From the NCBI RefSeq assembly GCF_009914755.1, contig NC_060935.1: a stretch of DNA of 64,000 bases; one strand, 5' to 3'. Position numbers and translations under genes: made by a program. How positions within the stretch are numbered: the first letter of the stretch is position 1; each line of letters starts with the position of its first letter. This document shows, in pieces, positions 49,755 through 64,000 of this stretch. The notes under the pieces were generated by a model, which did no database searches, was not told the origin of the DNA, and was given only the letters and a program-made list of their open reading frames with translations. The DNA is from the human T2T-CHM13v2.0 reference genome, Homo sapiens.

Positions 49755-50737
49755 CCTCCCACCCCATCCAGACGCCTTTATTCCCTTAAGGGATGTGGGG
49801 CTGGGCTGAGCTCGAGGAGGAGGACTGGGGCCAGAGATTGAGGGTGAGGCGGTGGCCTGGGCAGAGGAATCCAGTATGGGGAGAGAGCCCAGTGCCTGGC
49901 AGGGGAGGGTAATGGGGATAATGGGGACTTTGAAGTGGCCACTACATCCTGCAAAGCCCAGGCCTAGAGAATGGGGTTTATGTGGAGCCTCTGTGTGGAG
50001 AGGGGCCCCGACTGGGGATGTCAGGGTCCCCCTGCCCTTCAGGGCAGCAGCAAGCCTTCCTCCCAGCACCTCTGCTCTCATCTCCACATGCGCTCATGCA
50101 GAGGGCTTTGTAACGGCAGTAGTGTTAACAGCAGCAATTCATTGAGCACCTGCTATAAAACAGGCGGATCACTAGATATTTTACCTGCTTTCTCTCCTTT
50201 AATTCACTCAGCAACACAATCAACTCCATAATAGCCCTATTTAAAACCTAATGTAACTGTGAGTCAGAGAGGGTCAATGACTTGCCCAAGGTCACACAGC
50301 CTAAAAGGGGCTGGCTGTGTCAGCTTTCCAGCTGGTTCCCTGAATCACACATGCCAGGAGCTTTCCCCCGGGCACAGTGGTCTGTCCAGCACCGGGTGCT
50401 GGCTGATGATGTGCTTCCCAGGGGGCTGGAATGCAGGACTCTGGCCTGTCAGGGAGAGTTACAGTCTGATGGGAGGGGGCTGCTCCTGGCAGAGCCCGGT
50501 CTTTGATGGGGGAGCCCAGCTTTGATCTCCTTTTGAAGTCCCGGCCTCTGGAACCAGCAGCTTCAGTGGGGAGAGTGCAGGGGAAGGGGGAGATGAAAGG
50601 GCAGGGGAAGCCAGATTTGGAGAGAGAGGGGGGCAGCCACAAGGAGGGAAACAGATGTGTGCATGAGGACCCGGGAGACAGGGATCTGGGAGAGGGAGTG
50701 GGAGCGGCTGGTGGGAAGAACTGAGGGAAAGGAAATG
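49755..50737 (-). other. NECTIN1: Predicted non-coding 3'UTR terminal exon of the extended NECTIN1 isoform (3' end approximate)
   Basis: Pyrimidine-rich acceptor cccttccccctcctggccttccctgtctgcccacag|CATTTCC; junction to 53108 is reproduced at 54046-54161; AATAAA on the - strand at 49777-49782. Confidence 0.55.
49777..49782 (-). terminator. Candidate polyadenylation signal AATAAA
   Basis: TTTATT on the + strand; first canonical hexamer I found downstream of the 50737 acceptor. Confidence 0.4.
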
Positions 50738-53148
50738 CTGTGGGCAGACAGGGAAGGCCAGGAGGGGGAAGGGCTGAGTGTGCCACTGTGGGGCAGGGGA
50801 GACATGAGAGACAGGCTGGGCCCAGCAGCTCCTCACCCACCATCCCCAGCTTCAAATCCCCTTTCTGTTCCCAGGGAGGCCTTTCTGGCTCTGCCATGGG
50901 CTGACTCTCAGTGTCCAATGGTCCAGAAGTTCCAGTGAGGTCCTGGCTGAGGCCTTATCCAATGGCCTGGGGATGGGGCCAGGGGGAGGTGAGGAGCTCA
51001 CATCCAGGACTTTTCTGGGATCTATCACCCAGGCTTGCACCCCAGGCGAGGGGGCTGGGATGACGGATGGGGGAGGGTGTCTGCCGCATGGCGGTGCACC
51101 TGTTCCTGTCTGACATCCTGGTTCCTCCTGTGGGGCTGCCAAGCAGGGAAGTGAGAGTGCGTGGTGGGGCGGGCTGCCTGGCAGGAAGGGCTAATTCCCA
51201 GCTAATCCCCCAAGCCTACCCCACCCAGTGCCTTGCACTGCTCTCCCATCCCCCACACTCTCAGGTCCCCTTCAGCTCCCCGCAACGCCTCCCCTGTCCT
51301 GGCACCCTGTTCCAGTGCCCTTCAGACCCTGCACCCAAACAGAGGGCCTCTCTGGGGTTCAGGGCAGCAAGTGAAAGCCAATGAGGGGGCAGCAGTAGAC
51401 CCCTCCTTTTTTGAGTTTCCTTCAGGGGCGCCTGGGATTACACCCACTCCAACTCCACGTACTTCAGAGAGGCTGGGAGGAGGTCCAAATTAGGGTTTAT
51501 GGGATTAATGACTTTTCTTCTGGCCCCCCAGACTCTCTCCCCAACTCCAAGCCTCACGCTTTCCTCCCGTTGGCCTCTCCCGGGACCCAGACCTTACAAG
51601 GAGCTGCAGTAGCCAAGCATGCCTCCTTTCACAGGGGCTGGGGAGGGGAGGAACCGCATCTGGCACCCGGCCCCTTCCTCATGCCCACAGCACCCCTTCT
51701 TTGGCGAGGGAGAGGACAGGCTGGAGCAGGGACACATCCTGGTTCTCACACCAGGTTCTCCAAGGATGCTGCACAGACGGCCTCGGGCCCCTTGCTCTTC
51801 ACTCCTCCATACCTAAGCGGGGAACTGAGGCTAAGCACATTTCTGTTGAGGTGGCAGAGGATGGTGTGTCACAGGAGGACAGGAGGTGGTTGAGATGTAG
51901 TAGGGGTGGGGAACACTGGGAAGTGGGGAGCAGATTTCTGTTGTTTGTGGGTCCTGGGACCCAGCGGGCTCTCCTGGTGGGTGGGAAAGGTTCTGTAGGG
52001 GCCACCAGAGAAGCCCCTCCTGGGCCCATCCCCCTGTGCCAGCCGTCTCGGGACCTGCTGGCTCCTGGACCCATGGGACCCCTCTTATACTCAGCGCCAT
52101 CATGTCCCTCCCAGCAGTCCTGTCTCCTCCACCTGTCCTTGTCTCTGTCCCCGTCTCTCTCCCCTCCCACCCTGCTCATCCCAAACCACTCAGCACAAGG
52201 GCCGAGGCCAGGCTTCCTCACCGTATGTGGCCCCTTGGCCTGAGTCCCCAGCGCTCAAATTCCAGTTTCTCAGTCTGAGACACCTTCACCTTCCTTTGGC
52301 TCTCAGGGAGGTCACATGTTTGCTGAAACTCCTCTGATCTTACCACGTCCCCCAGACACTGCCTGGGGTCTTTGCACTGTGGCCTCTGTGTACCTCGCAG
52401 TATCTTCCAGGGCCCACGGTAGAGACAGCCCTGCTCACCACCCATCCCTGCAGAGCCTGTGGGCTCCCCTTCAGCCCAGGACTTAGAAGTCCCGAGCTGG
52501 CCACTCTACTGAGAGTGCCTCAAGGCTAGGAACTCCCCTGGACCCTGGGCCCTCTGCGCAGGGCCTGGAATGAGCAGGCACTCAATAAAGGTTGGTTGAA
52601 TTCAACTGTCCAGCTGGGCCGGGGGGTCAAGAGGAAATGTGGGTGTGCAGCCTTGACCCTGGGGGCTCCTTGGTAAGAAAATGAAGTGGAGGCCAGCGTG
52701 GTGGCTCACACCTATAATCCCAACACATTGGGAGGCCAAAGCGGGTGGATCACCTGAGTTCAGGAGTTTGACACCAGCCTAAGGGGCCGGCTGGGATGCA
52801 GGGAGTGAGGCCACTTCTGGGGCCCACAGAGGGATAAGGAGGACTGTTGGAACAGGAAGGGGCCCTAGACTTGATTTAGATTTCACCGGTGGGGAAACTG
52901 AGGCTCAGAGAGGGGAAACAGTGTATGGCAGAAATGGAACAACATTCCTGCCCTCTGGCTCCTGGTCCACATTTCTTCTCCTGTTCTCACCAGGCCCCTG
53001 CCCACCTCCCCCACCCTTTCATTGCCAAGCCCAGCAGGTAGGGTGCAGGCCCTTCCAGGAAGGGCAAGAAGGGGCTCTCAGAGCAGGAGGGAGGTGGGTG
53101 GGTTTACCTGTGGTCCAGAAGCAGGGGTGGGTGGCTAGGGGTTATGAG

Positions 53149-53289
53149 CTAGGGTGGGCTCAACTGGATGGTGGCATATTCCACAGCCTCTGCAGGCCCT
53201 GGCACGGGGGTCCGCAGCCCTGGCACGAGTTCCAGGGCAGAGGTGTCCAGCTCTGCATAGTGGCTGTGAGTGTCCTTTAGGCCAGAGCC
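53149..53289 (-). CDS. NECTIN1: Predicted alternative terminal coding exon of NECTIN1 carrying tandem ITIM/ITSM-like motifs (46 aa + stop; exon spans 53108-53289)
   Basis: Acceptor cctgtcccttctgcctcattcctag|GGC; open phase-0 frame GSGLKDTHSHYAELDTSALELVPGLRTPVPGPAEAVEYATIQLSPP*; in frame with the donor at 62143; downstream donor CAG|GTAAAC at 53107. Confidence 0.8.
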   Translation of the reverse strand, partial: GSGLKDTHSHYAELDTSALELVPGLRTPVPGPAEAVEYATIQLSPP

Positions 53290-54045
53290 CTAGGAATGAG
53301 GCAGAAGGGACAGGTGGCAGGAGGGGTCGGTGGGGGTGTGGTCAGGACCAGACGAGGCACCCCAGGGCCAGGCGTCGGGGGAGATGGGAGGTGTGGGTGT
53401 GCAGGGAAGCATATGAGAGAGAAGGGAACCATGGAGGGTCAGGGGGATGGGGGGAGAGAGAGACGCAGAACACCAATTACTCAGTGACAACAGAGGAAAC
53501 AGGTTTAGAAAAGGTGTTTACAAAAATTAGTCACAAAACATTTACCTGCTGTGCTAAGCTGTGTCCTCTTAGGCCATGGGCATGGGTGGACAGAGGCAGG
53601 GTGGGTCCTACTCCTGAACCCCCTGTATTTGCCTCCGAGACGTTATTTGTGCTAACCCTTTCATTTTGCAGAGGGAAGAGAGATGCCTGGAGAGGGGACA
53701 TGCTGTGCAGGGGGTCACGGGGAGGCTCCTGGGGCATAAAACAGAACTTGGAGTCAAAGGGCCTGGCTTTAAAGTTTTGCCGGACCCCCCTGCTGTGGCT
53801 TGACAGGCAGATGGCTCAACCCATCTGAGCTGAGTTTTTCTTTTGTGAAATGGGAAAATAGAACTTATAAGCATATCACTATGGTTAGAACCCAGGGCTC
53901 CAACTCCCACCTCTAGCTATTCAGCGGCACTGCAGTTCTTTGACTCTTAGTGTGATTTGCAAATTATTAGAATAAGAGTGCTCCAAGGACAGGGGCTGAC
54001 ATGAAGTTGAGTAGCAGAGGCTCTCCCTCCCTCTGCTGGGAGTTG

Positions 54046-54161
54046 CAGATGTGCGAATGGGGACCCAGGAGACAGGGAGCTGGGAGAGGGAATGGGAGTG
54101 GCTGGTGGGAAGAACTGGGGTAGAGAAAATGCTGTGGTCCAGAAGCAAGGGTGGGTAGCTA
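54046..54161 (-). other. Intronless local copy of a spliced NECTIN1 3'UTR junction
   Basis: 54132-54161 matches 53108-53137 (28/30) and 54046-54131 matches 50652-50737 (75/86); the join removes exactly a GT...AG segment. Confidence 0.75.
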
Positions 54162-54929
54162 CTGACAACTCACCCTGTGGCTGTGCCAAGCTCCTTTCCC
54201 TCCCAGGGCCTCAGTTTCCCCTTCAGCAAAATAGGAGGGTGGCTTGATGATCCCTGAGGTCCTTCCAGCTCTTCTCTCTAGATCTATCCTCACAAGCTCC
54301 TCCTCCTCAGCTCAATGCTCAGTGCCAGTGTGCAGGCAGATAGATCATCTGTCCACAGAGCAGGGGCTGAGGGAGAGGAGGGCTCTCGCACGCCGGGAGG
54401 GCAGGGGCTGGTACAGGAAGAAGGCTGTGTGCTATTGCAGGGAGCTCTGTGACCTGGGCTGCTGCTCACTCTTTTCCTTGGCTGGGCCGCCTGGGCAGCA
54501 GGGAAAGCTAGGTGTGCTGATTTCAGTTGCCCTCCATCAACGCCCATCTCGTGTCCATCAATGACACATGGCATGGGCAGGGACACATGGCAGAGCTAAG
54601 ATGAATGCAATGAGCTCCTGATTCCTCACAAGGGAAAGTCACACTCTGACACCTGCTCCTCCCTTTGGCCCTGTGCTTCCACAGCCTGCCTGGAGTTGGA
54701 GGTGGGGTCAGGGGCTGGGAGGAGACACCTCTTTTCCAGAAGGAAGCAGCCTGGGTTGGAGGTTGGGGGTACAGGAGACCAGGGGCAGAAGGAAGGGGAA
54801 GGAGGCTAGACAGACAGGAAGTCTGGGTCCCAACCCACAAGTTGGGGGGACCTATAAGTGTGGCTGAGGGGCGGGGAGGTGGGGTCTGGGCAAGCAGCAC
54901 AGTGTGAGTAGGAGATGCTGGGAGCAAAA

Positions 54930-55295
<366 letters not shown>

Positions 55296-57020
55296 TAAAG
55301 ATGGGAAGAGTGGCTGCTGCTCTGGGATGGTGTGAAGGCCATCCTGCAGAGGCAGAGGGGTACATTGGTGGTGTCCCCATGACTAAATGGATCCTACCTC
55401 TTGTCCCTCCCATCATCCTGAGGATGCCTGGGGACTGGTTCTTCAGGTAAATGCGAGGCCAGGTGTGTCCTGGGGTTGTGCAGACTCTATAGATTTCCAC
55501 TGGGGAGGTCTTCCAGACAGCTTCTTTATGCAGACCTTCCCTAGCTGTGTGCCACTGGACAGGAGCAACCTGACTCTGAGCCCCAGGGAAGCCTGGGAGT
55601 TTAGAGGGTGATGGCCAAAGGTCGTTTGGGAATATCTCACCCAGGTAAGTGGAGAGGAGCTCAACTACATGGTTTGGGACCACCTTATCCAGGATGTGGG
55701 GCTGCCCAGGGAGCACTGGGCACTTTGCCTTTAGCCTTCGTAGAATCTGTCTCAAAGATGACAGAAAGCAATGACATGTGACTCCTGCTGGGTGATACCA
55801 GGAGGGTCCCAAGAAAACAGGTGGCGAAAGGTAAAATAGAGAATTGGGCCAGCACCTGCTGGCAAGGAAGACCTCACCCAAAGTGGAAGGCAGGCCCTGG
55901 AGAGTTCCTGGCACAAAGTGGTAGCCCAGTTGCCAAATCTTTCATCAGCAGGGACCTGGGAGAACATCGTGGTGGAGGGGAGTTTCAGGTCCAGTGCTTC
56001 ACGCATTTGAAAGATGTGCAGGGAACAGGGCTGCAAGGGCAGCAGAGCTGGCTGGTTATTGTTAAGTCATGTTGGAGAAGGAGAAACTGAGGGCCATCAG
56101 CAGTTAGAGGCTCAACCTCAGAGCTGGAGACCCTCTTTGGTTGCTTCCAAAGAGACCCATATCCTACCGTGGAGGAGTGGACACAGCTGAGGAACAGACC
56201 CAGGATGTGAGAGTAGGAATCAGAGGGCTCCAGGGCAGCTCAGCCAAGGCAGGCCTGTTGTGCTTGGTAAGGGCCCTGCTGGGGAAAACCTGGGTCTCTG
56301 AAACCGATGGGAGGATGAGTGAGTGGAGAACCTTGAGTGGGTGGCCCACTCTTCTCTAGTTAAAGAGCTAACAGCACCGCATGCTGGAAGATGCTGTGGA
56401 GGCCTTTCCCCTGCGAGGCAACGGATGCCCCCTCCTCTGTTCCTGGCTGTAGGCTGATGCTGGGGTTAAAGCCCAGCACAACCCAGCTGGGTCCATGCTG
56501 GACCTGATCAAGAAGGAAGATGACAGGCCTGCAGAGCCAGGAGAGCAACAGCAAGCTAGCGTTGACCAGCAGAAGTCTGGGGAGCACCCCTGGGTTGGAT
56601 TTTGAGGGTTCTTGACCAAGTGAGCCAGAATATAGACTGAATAAACAAGAATTCATTGATTTGGGAGCGCACTTTCTCAGGACATGGGATTCAACACCCT
56701 TCAAGGACCCCAAAGGATTGGGCAAATTTACTGCTGAGGCATGGTGTTTGCACAGTGCACAAGTGCAGAATTGGGATTGACATACTAAACCCACATGAGG
56801 TCTGTGGGGGTGAAGGCCAACTGGAAACTCTGAAACTACCTCATCACCCAAGAGAGTAAATCAAAAAGGATATTGTACTCAGGACGGGGAAGATGGCAGA
56901 GATCATTGTCATCACTAAAGACCTAAAGGATGCAAGGGTGCAGGGCCCTCTCTAATCTTCATTTAACTAATCAGTCTGACCCCTACAGAAACCAGACAGA
57001 TCCTGGAGAATTACGGCCAA

Positions 57021-57350
57021 TGCTATGGTCTTAATGTTGGTATTCCCCCAAATTCATATTCTGAAATCCTAACCTCCGAGGGGATGACATTAGGAAGTGA
57101 GGCCTTTGGGAGGTGAATGGGATTAGTGCCCTTATAAAAGAGGCCCAGAGGGCTTCTATCCTCTTCCACCGTTTGAGAACGCAAAGTGAAGTCACCATCT
57201 GTGAACCAGAAAGTATTGCCCTCACTAGACACTGAATAGCTTGATGCTTTGGACTTCCCAGCCTCCAGAACTGTGAGAAACACGTTTCCATTGTTTATAA
57301 GCCACCCGGTTCATGGTATGTTTTTATAGCAGCCTGAATGGGAAAAGACA
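57021..57350 (+). mobile_element. MLT1A-like LTR
   Basis: tgctatggtcttaatgtt...ttataagccaccc...tagcagcctgaa. Confidence 0.8.
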
Positions 57351-57478
57351 GCTAGCATAGCCTCAATCAAGTGGTCACCCCGATGGCAGCTGCTGGAATG
57401 GTCTTCTAAATGACAGCTGCAGTGCCAGTTTGGCGGCAATACTCCGAAAGGCCTCTATAGGATGCTATGTCCCCACTA

Positions 57479-57910
<432 letters not shown>

Positions 57911-60723
57911 AGCAGGAGTGGCTCACGGTTACCATCACACCCAGTGACCCAATGGGGGAATTTTGTGCTTTTATTCCCACAACTCTGAGCTCTGCGGGAG
58001 GGAGGGGCCCACAGACTATAAGCTAGGACTGCTGCCTGGGCCCTTGGACTGCATGTGTTTGGGGCCAGCAGGGAAGAAAAGGAGTTGGGTGGTGGCAGGG
58101 GTAACTGACCCATCAGCAGGAGGAGGCCAGGCTGCTTCTGTGCAATGGGGCTAGGGAGGAATGTGTGGAACCCACGCTTGGCCTACTTAGGGGCCTCTTC
58201 TCTTTTGAAGGAATGGACACTTCCAACAACCCTGGCCTGAGGAAGGTGTGTTCATCAAGGCCTCAGCGTCCTCAGGAATAAAACTTTTGTTCACACCAGG
58301 ACCTGCTGTGGAGACAGCCGAGCGAGGGGAATTGAGAAGGGATATGGACAGGAGAGGATGGGTACCAGTGTGGCCCTAAGATCTGCTGCAGCAACAGGGG
58401 CCACATCCCCAGGAAGGAAGGCACACTGAATCGAAGAGGAGCTGCTCCCTGCCCCTGGATGGAAGAGCAGATCTCAGCACGCGGCAGACCGTGGCAGTGT
58501 GGACCCGGACAGCTGCGGAGCGTGGCTGGCTGCAGCCCCAGCTGCCACCCCGCTGGATCCACCCAGCATTTGTGCTGAGACCGCAATTCCCCTAGACCGC
58601 TCTCAGCCAACAACTAGACAGGCTGGGAATCCAGCGCAGGCCCTTTCCTGTGGGACGCAGGAGTCCTCTAATAGCAGCGATGGCCCAAGGATGGCACAGT
58701 GCTTGGCTACACTGCGCTGCCATCCTGAGACTTTCTTTTCAGCCCTCCTTCTTTCCCCATCCCCTTTCATGGGAGGTGGATCAGCATCCTGCTCTGAGGC
58801 TCTCCCTGCCACCTGCTGCTCCCTCGTGTGTCCTTCACAGGTGTCCCCCAGTGACTCTTGCATGTCTAATCTCAGCTTGGCATCTGCTCCTTGGAGTACC
58901 TGAACTTCAGACTCCATCCATCCAAAGGTCATTGGGTCCAGTTTTCTGCTTCTAGCCTGGGCTGTCCGTGCTCACAACACCGGGGAGATGGAAGCCCCTC
59001 TCCTTAGGACAGGGGATGTCTCCTCCTCCCTCCTTGTTGAGACATTGGCTTTGAGTCCTCTGGAAGTCCTTCCTCAGACCCAGTTTAGAGCCTCCCAGCT
59101 CTCTAAATGGTTCCTGCCACTTGAGCGGTCCCTAGTCCAGAAATCATGGCGGGTGTTGAGTGGAGTACCACGGCCTTAGTGAGCACCCTTGGGTGTGTGT
59201 GCATCATGGACCTGGCCCACACAGAGGGGCCTTGGCCCACCCGGTCTGGGGCCGCTGAGCTTGGCCCCCAGGCTCCCTGCAGCCTTCCCACCTCCCTTGA
59301 AGCCCCATGGTGAACAGCGCCTGCTCTCTGCCTGGCTCCTTCTCGTGACTTTTTGGGAAGGAGAATTGATAATATCAATGATGTGACTTGTAGACAAGCT
59401 GCATCGCCAACGAATCCGAGTTCTGGGGATAAATCCTTTTCTCGCCCGGTAATTGCTCTGTAAGCCAAAAGGAATTACACTTTTTGGCAACCACAACAGA
59501 GCCTCCCCAGGACGCCAGAGCTTCCCTTCCGCTGGTGACTTCCACACACCACCCGGCAGGCCGTTCACAAGCCTCTGTCCATCCAGACGCCCTAACCACG
59601 GCCCCTGGGCTCAGGACATAGGGTGTAGGTGCTCTCTTCGCCCCCTCAACCTGCCGCTCCTGCCCGTGGCTGGTGGGTGGAGGTGGGCTCACTGTGCTCT
59701 TTGTCCCAAGTGGCTCTTGAATGGATACAGTCATCAGGGGATTCCACCAACCCAACATAAGCAGAGCCCGGGGAGGGAAGGCGGTGAGGGACGAGGAAGA
59801 GTCAGGGCCATGAGCTAGGGTCTGGGCTTGGATGAGAGAGGAGGGGAGCGAAAGGATGAGTGTGCAGAGGGACGGGTGAAGGCAGTGGGCACTGTCCTGA
59901 AGCTGCTCCTTGTGCCCCCAGGGAGGGCTGGGCATGCCAGGCGTGGGGGCAGCAGTCAGAGAGCAAGACCGAGAAGCGTCAGTGGGGATTAGGGCCAGCT
60001 GCAGCTGTTCCATTCCGTCACAGAGATTTTTATGCCGAGCCTGGGCCCGCTCTATGGGGGATCCCACTGGAGTTTCCATGATTTTCCAAATTGCTCCCTT
60101 CCATCATCTTCCTTCTCCCTCCAGCCCCAGGCCCCCATCGCTCCCTCTTTCTCCTCCCCTTCTTTCACCATGGCTCTGACAAGTGAGGTTAGTGACTCTT
60201 GACTGGAGGCTAAGGGAAAAGGCCCATTTGGAGAACGCCGAATGAGGCATGGCTTTCTCTTTCTGGAAATAGTGGTCTCCCCGCTCCCCTACCTCCCTTG
60301 CTTTCGGGCCTGGGATGATGTGCTCTCTCTCTCCTGAGGCAGGCGTGAGCTGGTGTCTGCAGGTGGGAGATTCTCGCCCTGCTTGGTGCTTAGAATGCCC
60401 TGGCCCCCGACGCAGGACTCTGAACCCAAGTTCTCTGGCCTGTGTGTTCACTGTCTGGGTCCCTGGAGCTGAGGGGCCACCAGGCAGCAGAGCTGGGCCC
60501 TCCTGCTGACAGTAATCCCGGGGCTGCAGCAGCCTTGGCATTAGCGGTACCAGGTGACCCTGAGGCTCTCAAGCCCTGCCCAGGCTTCCCTGTGTTCAGG
60601 TGAACTGCCCAGCATCTGCTCATCATGCTGGCTGCTGCCTGCTTAGGGCCTGGACTTGAGAGCCAGGGTCCCAGGGTGTGAAGCCTTCCCCAATGTCTCT
60701 GGGTGATCTTGGGCAAGACTTTT

Positions 60724-61118
60724 GTTATGGTTTGAATGTGTCCCCCCAAATTCGTGTGTTGGAAAGTCTATCTTCAGTGTAAGGGTGTGGGAGGTGGGGC
60801 CTAATGAGAGGTGATTAGGTCATAGATTAGGCCTTCACGGATGCATTGTCTCTATCAAGGGAGCAGGTTAGTTATGGAGGCAGTGGGCATGTTATGAAAC
60901 TGAGTCTGGCCCCTTCCTGCTCTCTCACTCTCAGGGCATGCTTTCTCGCCTGCCGGCCTTCCACCATGGGATGAAGCAGCAAGAAGGCTCTTGCCAGAGG
61001 CAGACCCCTCGACCTTGGACTTTCCAGCCCCCAGAACTGTAAGAAATAAATCTCTCTTCTTTATATATTGCCCAGTCTCAGGTATTTTTTTATAGCATCA
61101 CAAAACAGACTAAGACAC
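60724..61118 (+). mobile_element. MST-type LTR inserted in a MIR
   Basis: tgttatggtttgaatgtgtcccc...cagactaagaca; MIR halves on both sides. Confidence 0.82.
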
Positions 61119-62107
61119 TTCAAGTTCACTGAGCCTCCGTTTCCTTATCTATAAAATGGGGCAACGGAAGGACTTATCATATAGATTGTTGAACAATCCA
61201 TGTGATAAGAACAATGTTTGAAAAGTGACTAGCCAGCAAGTGTTCCACACTGTCATTATGATCCCTTCTGTTGGAACCGGCAGGCCCATGCTGTGCAGAC
61301 TGGGATGTGGGGGTGCACCTCAGATGAGAAGGAGAGTGGTACAGGAGCTACCCAGCTGCTGTTTGAGGAATGGATGTTGTGTCCACAGTGAGTTCTAGCT
61401 CATTTCCATGTCTCTAGGTTGGTTGAGGAATAGCACATAGCTGGTGGTCCTTTGTACCCTGGGTAGTATCAGAAGGTGGACGCTGGGCTGGCTCTCTGGG
61501 CTCAGTACCCTGGGAAGGGAATGCTACCTCCCTGGGGGCAGGATTTGGCACCTCCAGATGGGTTCATGTTGGTACTTCCTGCCAAGAGTGAGGATGGCTG
61601 TACCACGGAGACAAAGGCCTGGCTCTCCTGCCAGTGCCAGGAGAGTGTGTGTTATCTTTGGGTCCAGGCGGTCTGGCCTGGGTCTCTGGGCTGCACTGTA
61701 TGGGTAACACCCCTTGCCCCCAAGTCTGCTGAAAGGAGCCAGATATGGGCAAAGGTGGCAGCCATTCAAGTGGATGCTGGCCCTCTGAGTGGCTGGGAGT
61801 GAGGCCAGGAAGAGGCAGCACCTCCCGCTGGCAGCCCCGTTGGCAGCACTGGGAACTAAGGTGCAGGGTACAGAGCTGGAGGTGGGGCTTGGGGGAGGGA
61901 GAGGTGGGCACCAAGCTGGGGGGCCAGACTCATTGGAAATGCCAGTCTTCCAGAATGGTCTGTCCAGCATCCAGTCACCCTTTGCCCAGGGTGCCTGCAG
62001 TGCTTGGGTGGGCCTCCCTGTGCCCCCCTGCCCTCACCTCCTCCACCTCATCTGTCTGGTTTCCCTCTAAGGCAGCTGGGCTCATGGCCAGGCTGGGTGG
62101 TCCTGGG

Positions 62108-62257
62108 CTAGGGGCACTCTCCTCGAGGTTCGGTTGTCCTTACCGAGGGGTGGTAGGAGGGGGAGACCCCCAGATCATAGTAGGGGGGCTGCAGGGACAG
62201 CTTCTGCAAGTCCTCCTCTTCTTGCTGCTGCTGCCTCCCTGGGTCCAGGTGGACAAC
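62108..62257 (-). CDS. NECTIN1: NECTIN1 beta last coding exon as classically described (ends VRTTEPRGECP*)
   Basis: Acceptor ttctcttccag|GTT; 150 nt = VVHLDPGRQQQQEEEDLQKLSLQPPYYDLGVSPSYHPSVRTTEPRGECP plus TAG at 62108-62110; contains internal donor TCG|GTAAGG at 62143. Confidence 0.95.
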   Translation of the reverse strand, partial: VVHLDPGRQQQQEEEDLQKLSLQPPYYDLGVSPSYHPSVRTTEPRGECP

Positions 62258-62740: not shown

Positions 62741-62816
62741 CTGGATATCCTCAGGCACAAGGGAGCTTTGCCTGCTGGGAGAAGGCTCCGGCTTCTGGGA
62801 GAGGGGCTGGTCGGTC
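62741..62816 (-). CDS. NECTIN1: NECTIN1 beta cytoplasmic exon (76 nt)
   Basis: Acceptor tctccag|G; encodes (G)TDQPLSQKPEPSPSRQSSLVPEDIQ; donor CAG|GTGGGC; phases match both neighbours. Confidence 0.96.
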
Positions 62817-63873: not shown

Positions 63874-64000
63874 CCGGCCCCATCCGTCTCCGGTGGGCTC
63901 TTCTGCTGCCGGTTGTACAGGAAGAAGACAGTGAGCACAGCACCTAGGATGAGGAACACGGCCACGGTGCCCGCCAGGAGCCTGGCTGCACTTCCCAGAC
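63874..64000 (-). CDS. NECTIN1: NECTIN1 beta (HIgR) isoform transmembrane exon, 5' part beyond the window edge
   Basis: Minus strand translates LGSAARLLAGTVAVFLILGAVLTVFFLYNRQQKSPPETDGAG, the recognised nectin-1 beta transmembrane/juxtamembrane sequence; phase-2 donor GG|GTGAGC at 63873. Confidence 0.97.

What the first reader, a model, noticed from the sequence alone, without database searches (positions are those of the whole stretch)
62108..62146. The classical nectin-1 beta C-terminus (VRTTEPRGECP*) looks like read-through of a 5' splice site
Seen: the codons after ...SYHPS begin GTAAGG, a strong donor, and the stop comes 11 codons later. By eye I found no canonical AATAAA on the - strand until ~57970, about 4 kb away. 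Inference: the known 458-aa beta form may be an intron-retaining or intronically terminated product of the ITIM isoform. Use of this donor would then act as a switch between a signalling tail and a motif-less tail.
Basis: partly seen in the sequence, partly recalled or inferred. Interest (0 to 1): 0.7.

Follow-up and report, generated by a model that had tools for sequence, protein, structure and literature searches.

The report
Nectin-1 beta tail is unspliced intron
The last 11 amino acids of the textbook human nectin-1 beta (HIgR) protein are the start of an unspliced intron, and splicing there instead joins a shark-to-human conserved exon, absent from the human RefSeq table supplied, that carries two inhibitory-type tyrosine signalling motifs.

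Summary
Observation confirmed. On the minus strand the beta exon reads ...SYHPS (TCG 62146-62144), then GTAAGG, then stops at TAG 62110-62108. The RefSeq exon ends on that stop, so no 3'UTR is annotated.

Interpretation supported by comparative gene models, not by human RNA. Of 38 mammalian models that hold this exon end, 14 splice exactly there to a 46-codon exon. A further 16 read through; all start with V-R and run 6 to 129 residues. In 131 non-mammal nectin-1/1b models (shark, fish, amphibian, lizard, bird among those named) the same junction leads to that exon in 82 and to another tail in 41.

The human copy of the exon is intact at 53289-53149, 8,854 bases downstream. It has a good acceptor in matching phase and two ITIM-type motifs, SHYAEL and VEYATI, 27 residues apart. 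The predicted protein is 493 aa. The hub table lists no gene or exon there.

No poly(A) hexamer of 16 variants lies within 1,013 bases after the beta stop. The first AATAAA is 4.1 kb away.

Still open: whether human cells use the donor, where beta mRNA ends, and whether the choice is regulated. MaxEntScan was not run.

The parts
63874..64000 (-). Beta-type transmembrane exon. The annotated exon is 63874-64021, so its first 21 bases lie outside the window. It encodes ...LLAGTVAVFLILGAVLTVFFLYNRQQKSPPETDGAG, with donor GTGAGC, phase 2.
   Evidence: hub annotation; matches orthologues.
62741..62816 (-). Second beta-specific exon (TDQPLSQKPEPSPSRQSSLVPEDIQ). Its acceptor is ...tctccag and its donor is CAG|GTGGGC.
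   Evidence: hub annotation; orthologues.
62144..62257 (-). Third beta-specific exon proper, 38 codons (VVHLDPGRQQQQEEEDLQKLSLQPPYYDLGVSPSYHPS). It ends in phase 0 at the conserved splice junction.
   Evidence: junction position shared by orthologue models.
62138..62146 (-). 5' splice site TCG|GTAAGG. Positions -1 to +5 match the consensus.
   Evidence: recalled-matrix score 7.66 bits, against 8.24 and 8.00 for the neighbouring annotated donors. V-R is invariant in 16 of 16 read-through models.
62108..62143 (-). First 36 bases of the intron, read as VRTTEPRGECP plus TAG in the catalogued 458-aa beta form.
   Evidence: The length of this read-through varies from 6 to 129 residues across 16 mammalian models.
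53290..62143 (-). Intron of 8,854 bases between the donor and the ITIM exon. The first canonical AATAAA is at 57970-57975. There is one A-rich tract, at about 54962.
53149..53289 (-). Exon with no row in the hub's RefSeq table: 46 codons (GSGLKDTHSHYAELDTSALELVPGLRTPVPGPAEAVEYATIQLSPP) plus TAG at 53151-53149. It is preceded by a pyrimidine-rich tract and TAG|G acceptor, phase 0. The two ITIM-type motifs are SHYAEL and VEYATI.
   Evidence: 95.6% identity to the Sapajus nectin-1 X3 tail.; 56% identity to bird and axolotl tails, E about 1e-9.
53102..53110 (-). Donor-like CAG|GTAAAC, 41 bases after the ITIM-exon stop. It may mark a 3'UTR intron.
   Evidence: the Weddell seal model reads past the stop position and leaves the genomic frame exactly here. 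Recalled-matrix score 7.77 bits.

Best explanation
The three beta-specific NECTIN1 exons in the window (transmembrane exon, 62816-62741, 62257-62144) belong to an ancient isoform. Its third exon is internal and ends at the donor TCG|GTAAGG. Normal splicing removes an 8,854-base intron and joins a 46-codon exon at 53289-53149. The predicted human product is a 493-aa nectin-1 whose cytoplasmic tail carries two ITIM-type tyrosine motifs, SHYAEL and VEYATI, 27 residues apart.

The catalogued 458-aa beta/HIgR protein arises when that donor is not spliced. The ribosome then reads 11 intronic codons and meets a chance stop, which gives a tail with neither the ITIMs nor the afadin-binding end.

Shown: the sequence, the phases, the intact human exon, use of the junction in gene models from shark to primate, and the absence of a nearby poly(A) signal.

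Inferred:
- Human cells use the donor.
- The beta mRNA is mainly an intron-retaining or incompletely processed transcript rather than the product of a dedicated intronic poly(A) site. My split is about 0.5 retention, 0.3 distal or non-canonical intronic polyadenylation, 0.2 other.
- The phosphorylated motifs recruit SH2 phosphatases.
For: -: the sequence and the stop position.
- Sapajus nectin-1 X3 (493 aa) and rabbit LOC127491610 X2 continue from ...YYPS / ...HHPL into GS..KD..YAELD...VEYATIQLSP.
- the human exon at 53289-53149 is open, in phase 0, and preceded by a pyrimidine tract with no AG before the acceptor.
- the same tail appears in horse, beaver, rat, guinea pig, sheep, ferret, badger, seal, jaguar and tree shrew models.
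- of 38 mammal-type models, 14 splice straight to the ITIM exon, 1 does so with an insert, 7 leave the genomic frame at this point for other sequence (or are truncated), and 16 read through.
- all 16 read-through models begin V-R, as a GTRAG donor forces. Their lengths are 6,6,6,6,6,6,7,11,11,26,26,37,105,123,123,129.
- named nectin-1/1b isoforms of shark, ray, bichir, gar, bowfin, teleosts, axolotl, frog, lizards and a bird carry the tail. Of 131 non-mammal models, 51 have both motifs, 31 have the first motif with another end, 41 take an alternative tail, and 8 are other.
- the second motif is VxYxxI in 89 of 89 models, and the Y-Y spacing is 27 to 29 residues.
- no poly(A) hexamer within 1,013 bases of the beta stop.
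- Hub table: the RefSeq beta exon ends on the stop codon, so no 3' end has been defined.
Against: - No human transcript, junction-read or 3'-end data could be consulted.
- The orthologue proteins are mostly automatic predictions of unknown RNA support. Some read-through models (Cebus, Microcebus) may simply be projections of the human protein.
- The two database queries were biased. One search contained the read-through peptide and the ITIM exon, so the ratio of 14 to 16 says nothing about abundance.
- Similarity persists past the donor. VRTTEP is shared by human, rabbit and cat models, and human and rabbit agree at 9 of the first 11 residues. Some constraint therefore acts there, whether coding or splicing-regulatory.
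- The human first motif has S at Y-2, where 114 of 117 database models have V or I and none has S. It still fits the recalled ITIM consensus, but it is derived and could signal relaxation.
- The donor is only average by the recalled matrix.
Confidence: 0.8

Rival explanations
1. Beta is a regulated composite terminal exon. A dedicated intronic cleavage and polyadenylation site competes with the donor, as in the IgM secreted/membrane switch, and yields a stable beta mRNA and a functional motif-less receptor.
For: - A curated RefSeq record and a 1998 functional cDNA exist. The JCB 2000 passages read cite Cocchi 1998; the original paper was not held.
- The 11-residue length is shared by the human sequence and the Cebus and Microcebus models.
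- Sequence just past the donor is partly conserved.
- A review figure legend lists PVRL1 among targets affected by alternative polyadenylation in neuroblastoma, with no site given.
Against: - None of 16 hexamer variants occurs in the first 1,013 bases after the stop. The first AATAAA is 4,133 bases away, next to a masked repeat.
- The RefSeq model has no 3'UTR at all (hub table).
- The stop position is not conserved outside primates.
Confidence: 0.3
2. In humans the ITIM exon is a relic. The donor is no longer used, and beta is the only human product of these exons.
For: - The hub table lists 3 human NECTIN1 transcripts, a gene end at 62108, and no row at 53149-53289.
- The human first motif carries two derived changes (DTDIHY in Sapajus becomes DTHSHY in human).
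- No paper found mentions such a human isoform.
Against: - The human exon is open over all 46 codons and stops at the same place as most mammal models.
- It keeps both YxxL/I motifs, the acceptor and the pyrimidine tract.
- It is 95.6% identical to the Sapajus tail, more than the read-through peptide (9 of 11 against Cebus) or the preceding exon.
Confidence: 0.12
3. GTAAGG is a chance donor-like hexamer inside an ordinary terminal coding exon.
For: The expected chance rate is about 0.03 per 150-base exon. That is not negligible over a whole scan.
Against: The same position is the exon junction in 14 of 38 mammal models and in 123 of 131 non-mammal models, counting the ITIM and KEQ[S/Y/T]V tails together. 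V-R is invariant in 16 of 16 read-through models.
Confidence: 0.03

Closest known systems
CEACAM1-L / CEACAM1-S (recalled, not tested here)
   Same: An Ig-superfamily cell adhesion molecule in which alternative RNA processing chooses between a long tail with two ITIM-type tyrosines and a short tail without them.
   Different: In CEACAM1 the choice is inclusion or skipping of an exon. Here it is splicing or read-through of a donor. There is no sequence relation.
IgM heavy chain secreted/membrane switch and other composite terminal exons (recalled)
   Same: A 5' splice site in the last common coding exon competes with reading on into the intron, where a short peptide and a stop follow.
   Different: The IgM secretory poly(A) site lies close by and is well mapped. 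Here no poly(A) hexamer lies within 1 kb, so simple intron retention is at least as likely.
PVR/CD155 (Necl-5)
   Same: Same protein family. PVR is stated to be the only family member with an ITIM in a 2020 survey, which took the longest isoform per gene (passages read, PMC7286890).
   Different: The nectin-1 exon has two motifs. It shows no detectable sequence match elsewhere in the human genome (self hit only).
Nectin-1 alpha and other afadin-binding nectin isoforms
   Same: The same gene and the same ectodomain.
   Different: Alpha ends in the E/A-x-Y-V motif that binds afadin (passages of PMC2175253). Neither the beta end (...GECP) nor the ITIM-isoform end (...LSPP) has it.

Membership tests
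Composite terminal exon made by intronic polyadenylation | A functional 5' splice site at the internal boundary of the exon | tested here: met
   The junction is used in 14 of 38 mammal and 123 of 131 non-mammal gene models. These are models from other species, not human RNA.
Composite terminal exon made by intronic polyadenylation | An in-frame stop shortly after the unspliced donor | tested here: met
   TAG at 62110-62108, 11 codons on.
Composite terminal exon made by intronic polyadenylation | A poly(A) signal and cleavage site in the intron, near the stop | tested here: not met
   No hexamer of 16 variants in the first 1,013 bases. The first AATAAA is 4,133 bases away. Non-canonical sites cannot be excluded.
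Composite terminal exon made by intronic polyadenylation | Mapped 3' ends | not testable with these tools
   No 3'-end sequencing data are on hand.
Intron-retention isoform | Transcripts that carry the whole intron through to the next exon | not testable with these tools
   No RNA data. The absence of a nearby poly(A) signal is consistent with it.
ITIM-bearing inhibitory receptor | (S/I/V/L)xYxx(I/V/L) in the cytoplasmic tail (consensus recalled) | tested here: met
   Human SHYAEL and VEYATI lie downstream of the transmembrane exon. The first motif is VxYxxL or IxYxxL in 114 of 117 models, and the second is VxYxxI in 89 of 89.
ITIM-bearing inhibitory receptor | Tyrosine phosphorylation and recruitment of SHP-1, SHP-2 or SHIP | not testable with these tools
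   Needs experiments. No paper found reports it.
Afadin-binding nectin isoform | C-terminal E/A-x-Y-V | tested here: not met
   The ends are ...RGECP (beta) and ...QLSPP (ITIM form). The motif is as given in PMC2175253.

The most novel reading that the evidence does not exclude
The catalogued human nectin-1 beta/HIgR is an incompletely spliced by-product. The true and ancient product of these exons, conserved from sharks to humans, is a 493-aa nectin-1 with a tandem ITIM tail. When phosphorylated, that tail recruits SHP-type phosphatases, which would make nectin-1 an inhibitory signalling receptor as well as an adhesion molecule and herpesvirus receptor. Splicing versus read-through at 62144|62143 would set how much of it a cell makes.
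Probability: 0.4. Interest if true: 0.8.

Novelty: new member of a known kind. Interest (0 to 1): 0.62.

Why it matters
Nectin-1 is a major herpes simplex virus entry receptor, an adherens-junction organiser, a cleft lip/palate gene and a ligand of CD96. Its signalling is described through afadin, and a 2020 family survey gives an ITIM to PVR alone.

A tandem-ITIM nectin-1 tail conserved across jawed vertebrates would add an inhibitory signalling output to this protein. It would also change what 'nectin-1 beta' means in expression constructs, antibodies and isoform quantification.

On the practical side, the human RefSeq table supplied by the hub lacks the exon. It also carries a beta model that ends at its stop codon.

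Tried and rejected
- Paralogue search. The 38-aa exon and the 46-aa ITIM exon each found only themselves in the human genome. No comparison with NECTIN2, NECTIN3 or PVR exon structure was therefore possible.
- Original HIgR papers (Cocchi 1998, J Virol and PNAS) are not held. What 3' end the cDNA had remains unknown to me.
- The search for the alpha terminal exon in the 20 kb upstream of the window gave no tblastn hit. I dropped it.
- The non-mammal alternative tail ending KEQ[S/Y/T]V gave no match in the window. In the human genome only the transmembrane exon matched, at E 0.002.
- A-rich tracts that could explain internal oligo-dT priming: only one in the intron, 7.1 kb from the stop.
- Literature. 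searched 'nectin-1'+'ITIM' (97 papers, listing and abstract starts of 20 seen, passages of two read), 'NECTIN1'+'intronic polyadenylation' (0), nectin-1+SHP-2+cytoplasmic tail+isoform (8, listing only), the two peptide strings (0) and nectin1b names (11, 9 listed). None showed a description of this isoform. Supplements and non-open journals were not searched.
- MaxEntScan could not be run. The matrix I used is from recalled frequencies.
- No structure or complex prediction was attempted, because phosphotyrosine binding cannot be modelled that way.

Full report
**1. The observation**

On the minus strand the annotated exon 62257-62108 reads VVHLDPGRQQQQEEEDLQKLSLQPPYYDLGVSPSYHPS, ending with TCG at 62146-62144. 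It then continues GTA AGG ACA ACC GAA CCT CGA GGA GAG TGC CCC TAG, with the stop at 62110-62108.

The two upstream beta-specific exons fit together in frame. The transmembrane exon ends at 63874 with donor GTGAGC, and the second exon is 62816-62741 with donor CAG|GTGGGC.

According to the hub table the RefSeq beta exon stops at 62108, the last base of the stop codon. No 3'UTR or poly(A) site has therefore been annotated for this form.

On the minus strand there is no AATAAA or ATTAAA between 62108 and 57975. Even with 16 hexamer variants (a recalled list), nothing occurs within 1,013 bases of the stop.

**2. Is the donor more than chance?**

By itself, only mildly.
- GGTAAG occurs 21 times in 128 kb of both strands, and about 0.03 would be expected in an exon of this size.
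- With a matrix typed from recalled frequencies the site scores 7.66 bits. The two annotated donors of the same transcript score 8.24 and 8.00.
- 55 of 2,793 minus-strand GT sites score at least as high.
- MaxEntScan could not be run.

The decisive evidence came from other species.

**3. What lies beyond the donor**

A search with the 49 residues of the exon plus read-through returned 8 mammalian proteins.
- Two leave the genomic frame exactly after the codon that corresponds to human Ser-447: Sapajus nectin-1 isoform X3 (493 aa) and rabbit LOC127491610 X2. They continue GS.(L/P)(K/E)D.D..YAELDTSAL...VEYATIQLSP.
- Five read on as V-R...
- One (Ictidomys) leaves at the same point for another sequence.

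A local tblastn with these tails found the human counterpart at 53289-53155, 95.6% identical to Sapajus.

The human sequence there has these features:
- a pyrimidine-rich tract with no AG before the acceptor (...cattcctag|G);
- a CTGAC branch-point-like element upstream;
- a phase-0 start at 53289 that matches the phase-0 donor;
- 46 open codons, GSGLKDTHSHYAELDTSALELVPGLRTPVPGPAEAVEYATIQLSPP, then TAG at 53151-53149.

The intron is 8,854 bases long. The spliced human protein would be 447 + 46 = 493 aa, the length of the Sapajus model. The hub table has no row for any gene or exon at this place.

**4. How widely the junction is used**

A search with the human 46-residue exon found 15 proteins. 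They include nectin-1 isoforms of horse, beaver, rat and guinea pig, and fragments from jaguar, tree shrew, seal, ferret, badger and sheep.

A profile of four tails, run against 1.84 billion representatives, gave 91 hits at E up to 0.001. A third word-indexed search with one of these hits gave 191 proteins, of which 120 were listed. They are named nectin-1 or nectin 1b isoforms from catshark, devil ray, bichir, gar, bowfin, many teleosts, axolotl, a frog, lizards and a bird (14 of them inspected).

All 224 proteins were classified by script.

| Set | Models holding the exon end | Outcome at the junction |
|---|---|---|
| Mammal-type | 38 | 14 splice straight to the ITIM exon; 1 reaches it after a 16-residue insert; 7 leave at that point for other sequence or are truncated; 16 read through |
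| Non-mammal-type | 131 | 51 continue to both motifs; 31 to the first motif with a different end after ...DLVE; 41 to a long alternative tail ending KEQ[S/Y/T]V; 8 are other |

- The bird and axolotl tails align to the human exon at 56% identity, within its boundaries.
- The second motif is VxYxxI in 89 of 89 models.
- The first motif is VxYxxL in 106 and IxYxxL in 8 of 117 models.
- The tyrosines are 27 to 29 residues apart.

The exon end at 62144 is therefore an old internal exon boundary, and the exon beyond it has been kept as coding sequence across jawed vertebrates.

**5. What the read-through looks like across species**

All 16 mammalian read-through models begin V-R, which is what GT(A/G) AG(G/A) must encode. 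After that, identity to human falls:

| Read-through position | Models identical to human |
|---|---|
| 3 | 11 of 16 |
| 4 | 6 of 16 |
| 5 | 10 of 16 |
| 6 | 11 of 16 |
| 7 | 3 of 10 still running |
| 9 | 1 of 9 still running |

The peptide lengths are 6,6,6,6,6,6,7,11,11,26,26,37,105,123,123,129. Six models end at codon 7, which in human is CGA, one transition from TGA. The rabbit read-through model aligns along the human intron across three human stops.

This pattern fits sequence that is kept for a short distance next to a splice site but is not kept as a protein.

Against my reading, VRTTEP is shared by the human sequence and by rabbit and cat models, and human and rabbit agree at 9 of 11 positions. 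Some constraint therefore extends past the donor, and I cannot tell whether it is coding or regulatory.

**6. Mechanism**

Shown: two mutually exclusive outcomes at one site.
- Splicing gives a tail with two ITIM-type motifs.
- Read-through gives 11 residues and a stop, with neither these motifs nor the afadin-binding E/A-x-Y-V end. Nectin-1 beta/HIgR is known to lack that end (passages of PMC2175253).

Inferred: how the read-through RNA ends. No poly(A) hexamer lies within 1 kb, the first AATAAA is 4.1 kb off beside a masked repeat, and the intron holds only one A-rich tract. I therefore favour retention of the intron, or an incompletely processed transcript, over a dedicated intronic poly(A) site. 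A distal or non-canonical site is not excluded.

I also infer, from the recalled behaviour of tandem ITIMs in PECAM-1, CEACAM1-L, SIRP-alpha and PZR, that the phosphorylated tail would bind the tandem SH2 domains of SHP-2 or SHP-1. Nothing here tests that.

**7. Caveats**

- The orthologue proteins are largely automatic predictions. I do not know their RNA support, and some primate read-through models may be copies of the human record.
- My queries were biased toward each form in turn, so the counts do not measure abundance.
- The human first motif has S at Y-2 and H at Y-3, where Sapajus has I and D. None of the 117 database models has S at that position. It still fits the recalled consensus but is derived. 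I cannot say whether it is fixed in humans.
- I could not see GENCODE, UniProt or human transcript data.

**8. Comparison with what is known, and novelty**

The kind of event is familiar: a splice donor in competition with read-through into an intron. So is the use of alternative tails to add or remove ITIMs in an Ig-type adhesion molecule (CEACAM1-L/S, recalled).

The isoform itself sits in sequence databases as predicted 'isoform X' entries for many species. I found no paper that describes it:
- 'nectin-1' with 'ITIM' gave 97 papers. In the listing of 20, and in the passages of two that I read, the ITIM belongs to TIGIT, PVR or PILR-alpha.
- A 2020 family survey that took the longest isoform per gene assigns an ITIM to PVR only.
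- The peptide strings occur in no main text.
- Searches for intronic polyadenylation of NECTIN1, for SHP-2 with nectin-1 isoforms, and for nectin1b gave nothing relevant.
- Supplements and closed journals were not searched.

I file it as a new member of a known kind. It is of real interest to people who work on nectins, herpesvirus entry and nectin-family immune receptors, pending a look at human RNA data.

Noticed in passing
window 53102-53110 (-): A donor-like CAG|GTAAAC lies 41 bases after the ITIM-exon stop. The Weddell seal model lacks the stop, reads to the homologous ...LDYR and then leaves the genomic frame there. This suggests a 3'UTR intron and a further exon downstream. After the stop, the first ATTAAA and AATAAA on the minus strand are at 50203 and 49782.
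   Followed up: partly
window 62171-62188 (-), residues PPYYDL of the 62257-62144 exon: P-P-Y-Y-D-(L/M) is nearly invariant from shark to human in the retrieved models. It fits both a PPxY motif (WW-domain ligand) and a YxxL motif; both motif names are recalled. It is present in both the beta and the ITIM forms.
   Followed up: no
proteins P0139, P0031, P0135, P0140, P0181, P0182, P0168 and others: In 31 of 131 non-mammal models the tail departs after ...DLVE, just before the second tyrosine. It then either reads on (V-G-I...) or joins a short end (TLGGVQKSC, or TLESVTQRYRMRVIT). This looks like a second donor that removes only the second ITIM. The human exon has no GT at that point.
   Followed up: no
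proteins P0036, P0044, P0045, P0049, P0184 and others; window and G000: 41 of 131 non-mammal models join the same exon to a long tail ending KEQ[S/Y/T]V, which resembles the afadin-binding E-x-Y-V end. No counterpart was found in the window. In the human genome only the transmembrane exon matched.
   Followed up: partly
window 53257-53271 (-), first ITIM motif: Human (T2T-CHM13) reads DTHSHYAEL where Sapajus reads DTDIHYAEL. None of the 117 database models has S at Y-2. I do not know whether this is a hominoid change or an individual variant.
   Followed up: partly
proteins P0022, P0023, P0028, P0015, P0016: Several unnamed or ab initio models fuse the beta-specific exons to unrelated sequence. 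P0023 ends in what I recognise from memory as a THY1-like GPI-anchor region. In rabbit, jaguar, seal and badger the beta/ITIM exons are modelled as separate 'uncharacterized LOC' genes.
   Followed up: no
window 61097-60855 and 57330-57023 (-): Two similar repeat-like segments lie inside the intron (...TATAAA..ACAGTTCTGG(A/G)GGCTGG(G)AAGTCCAA..). They supply the only weak TATAAA hexamers near the beta stop.
   Followed up: no
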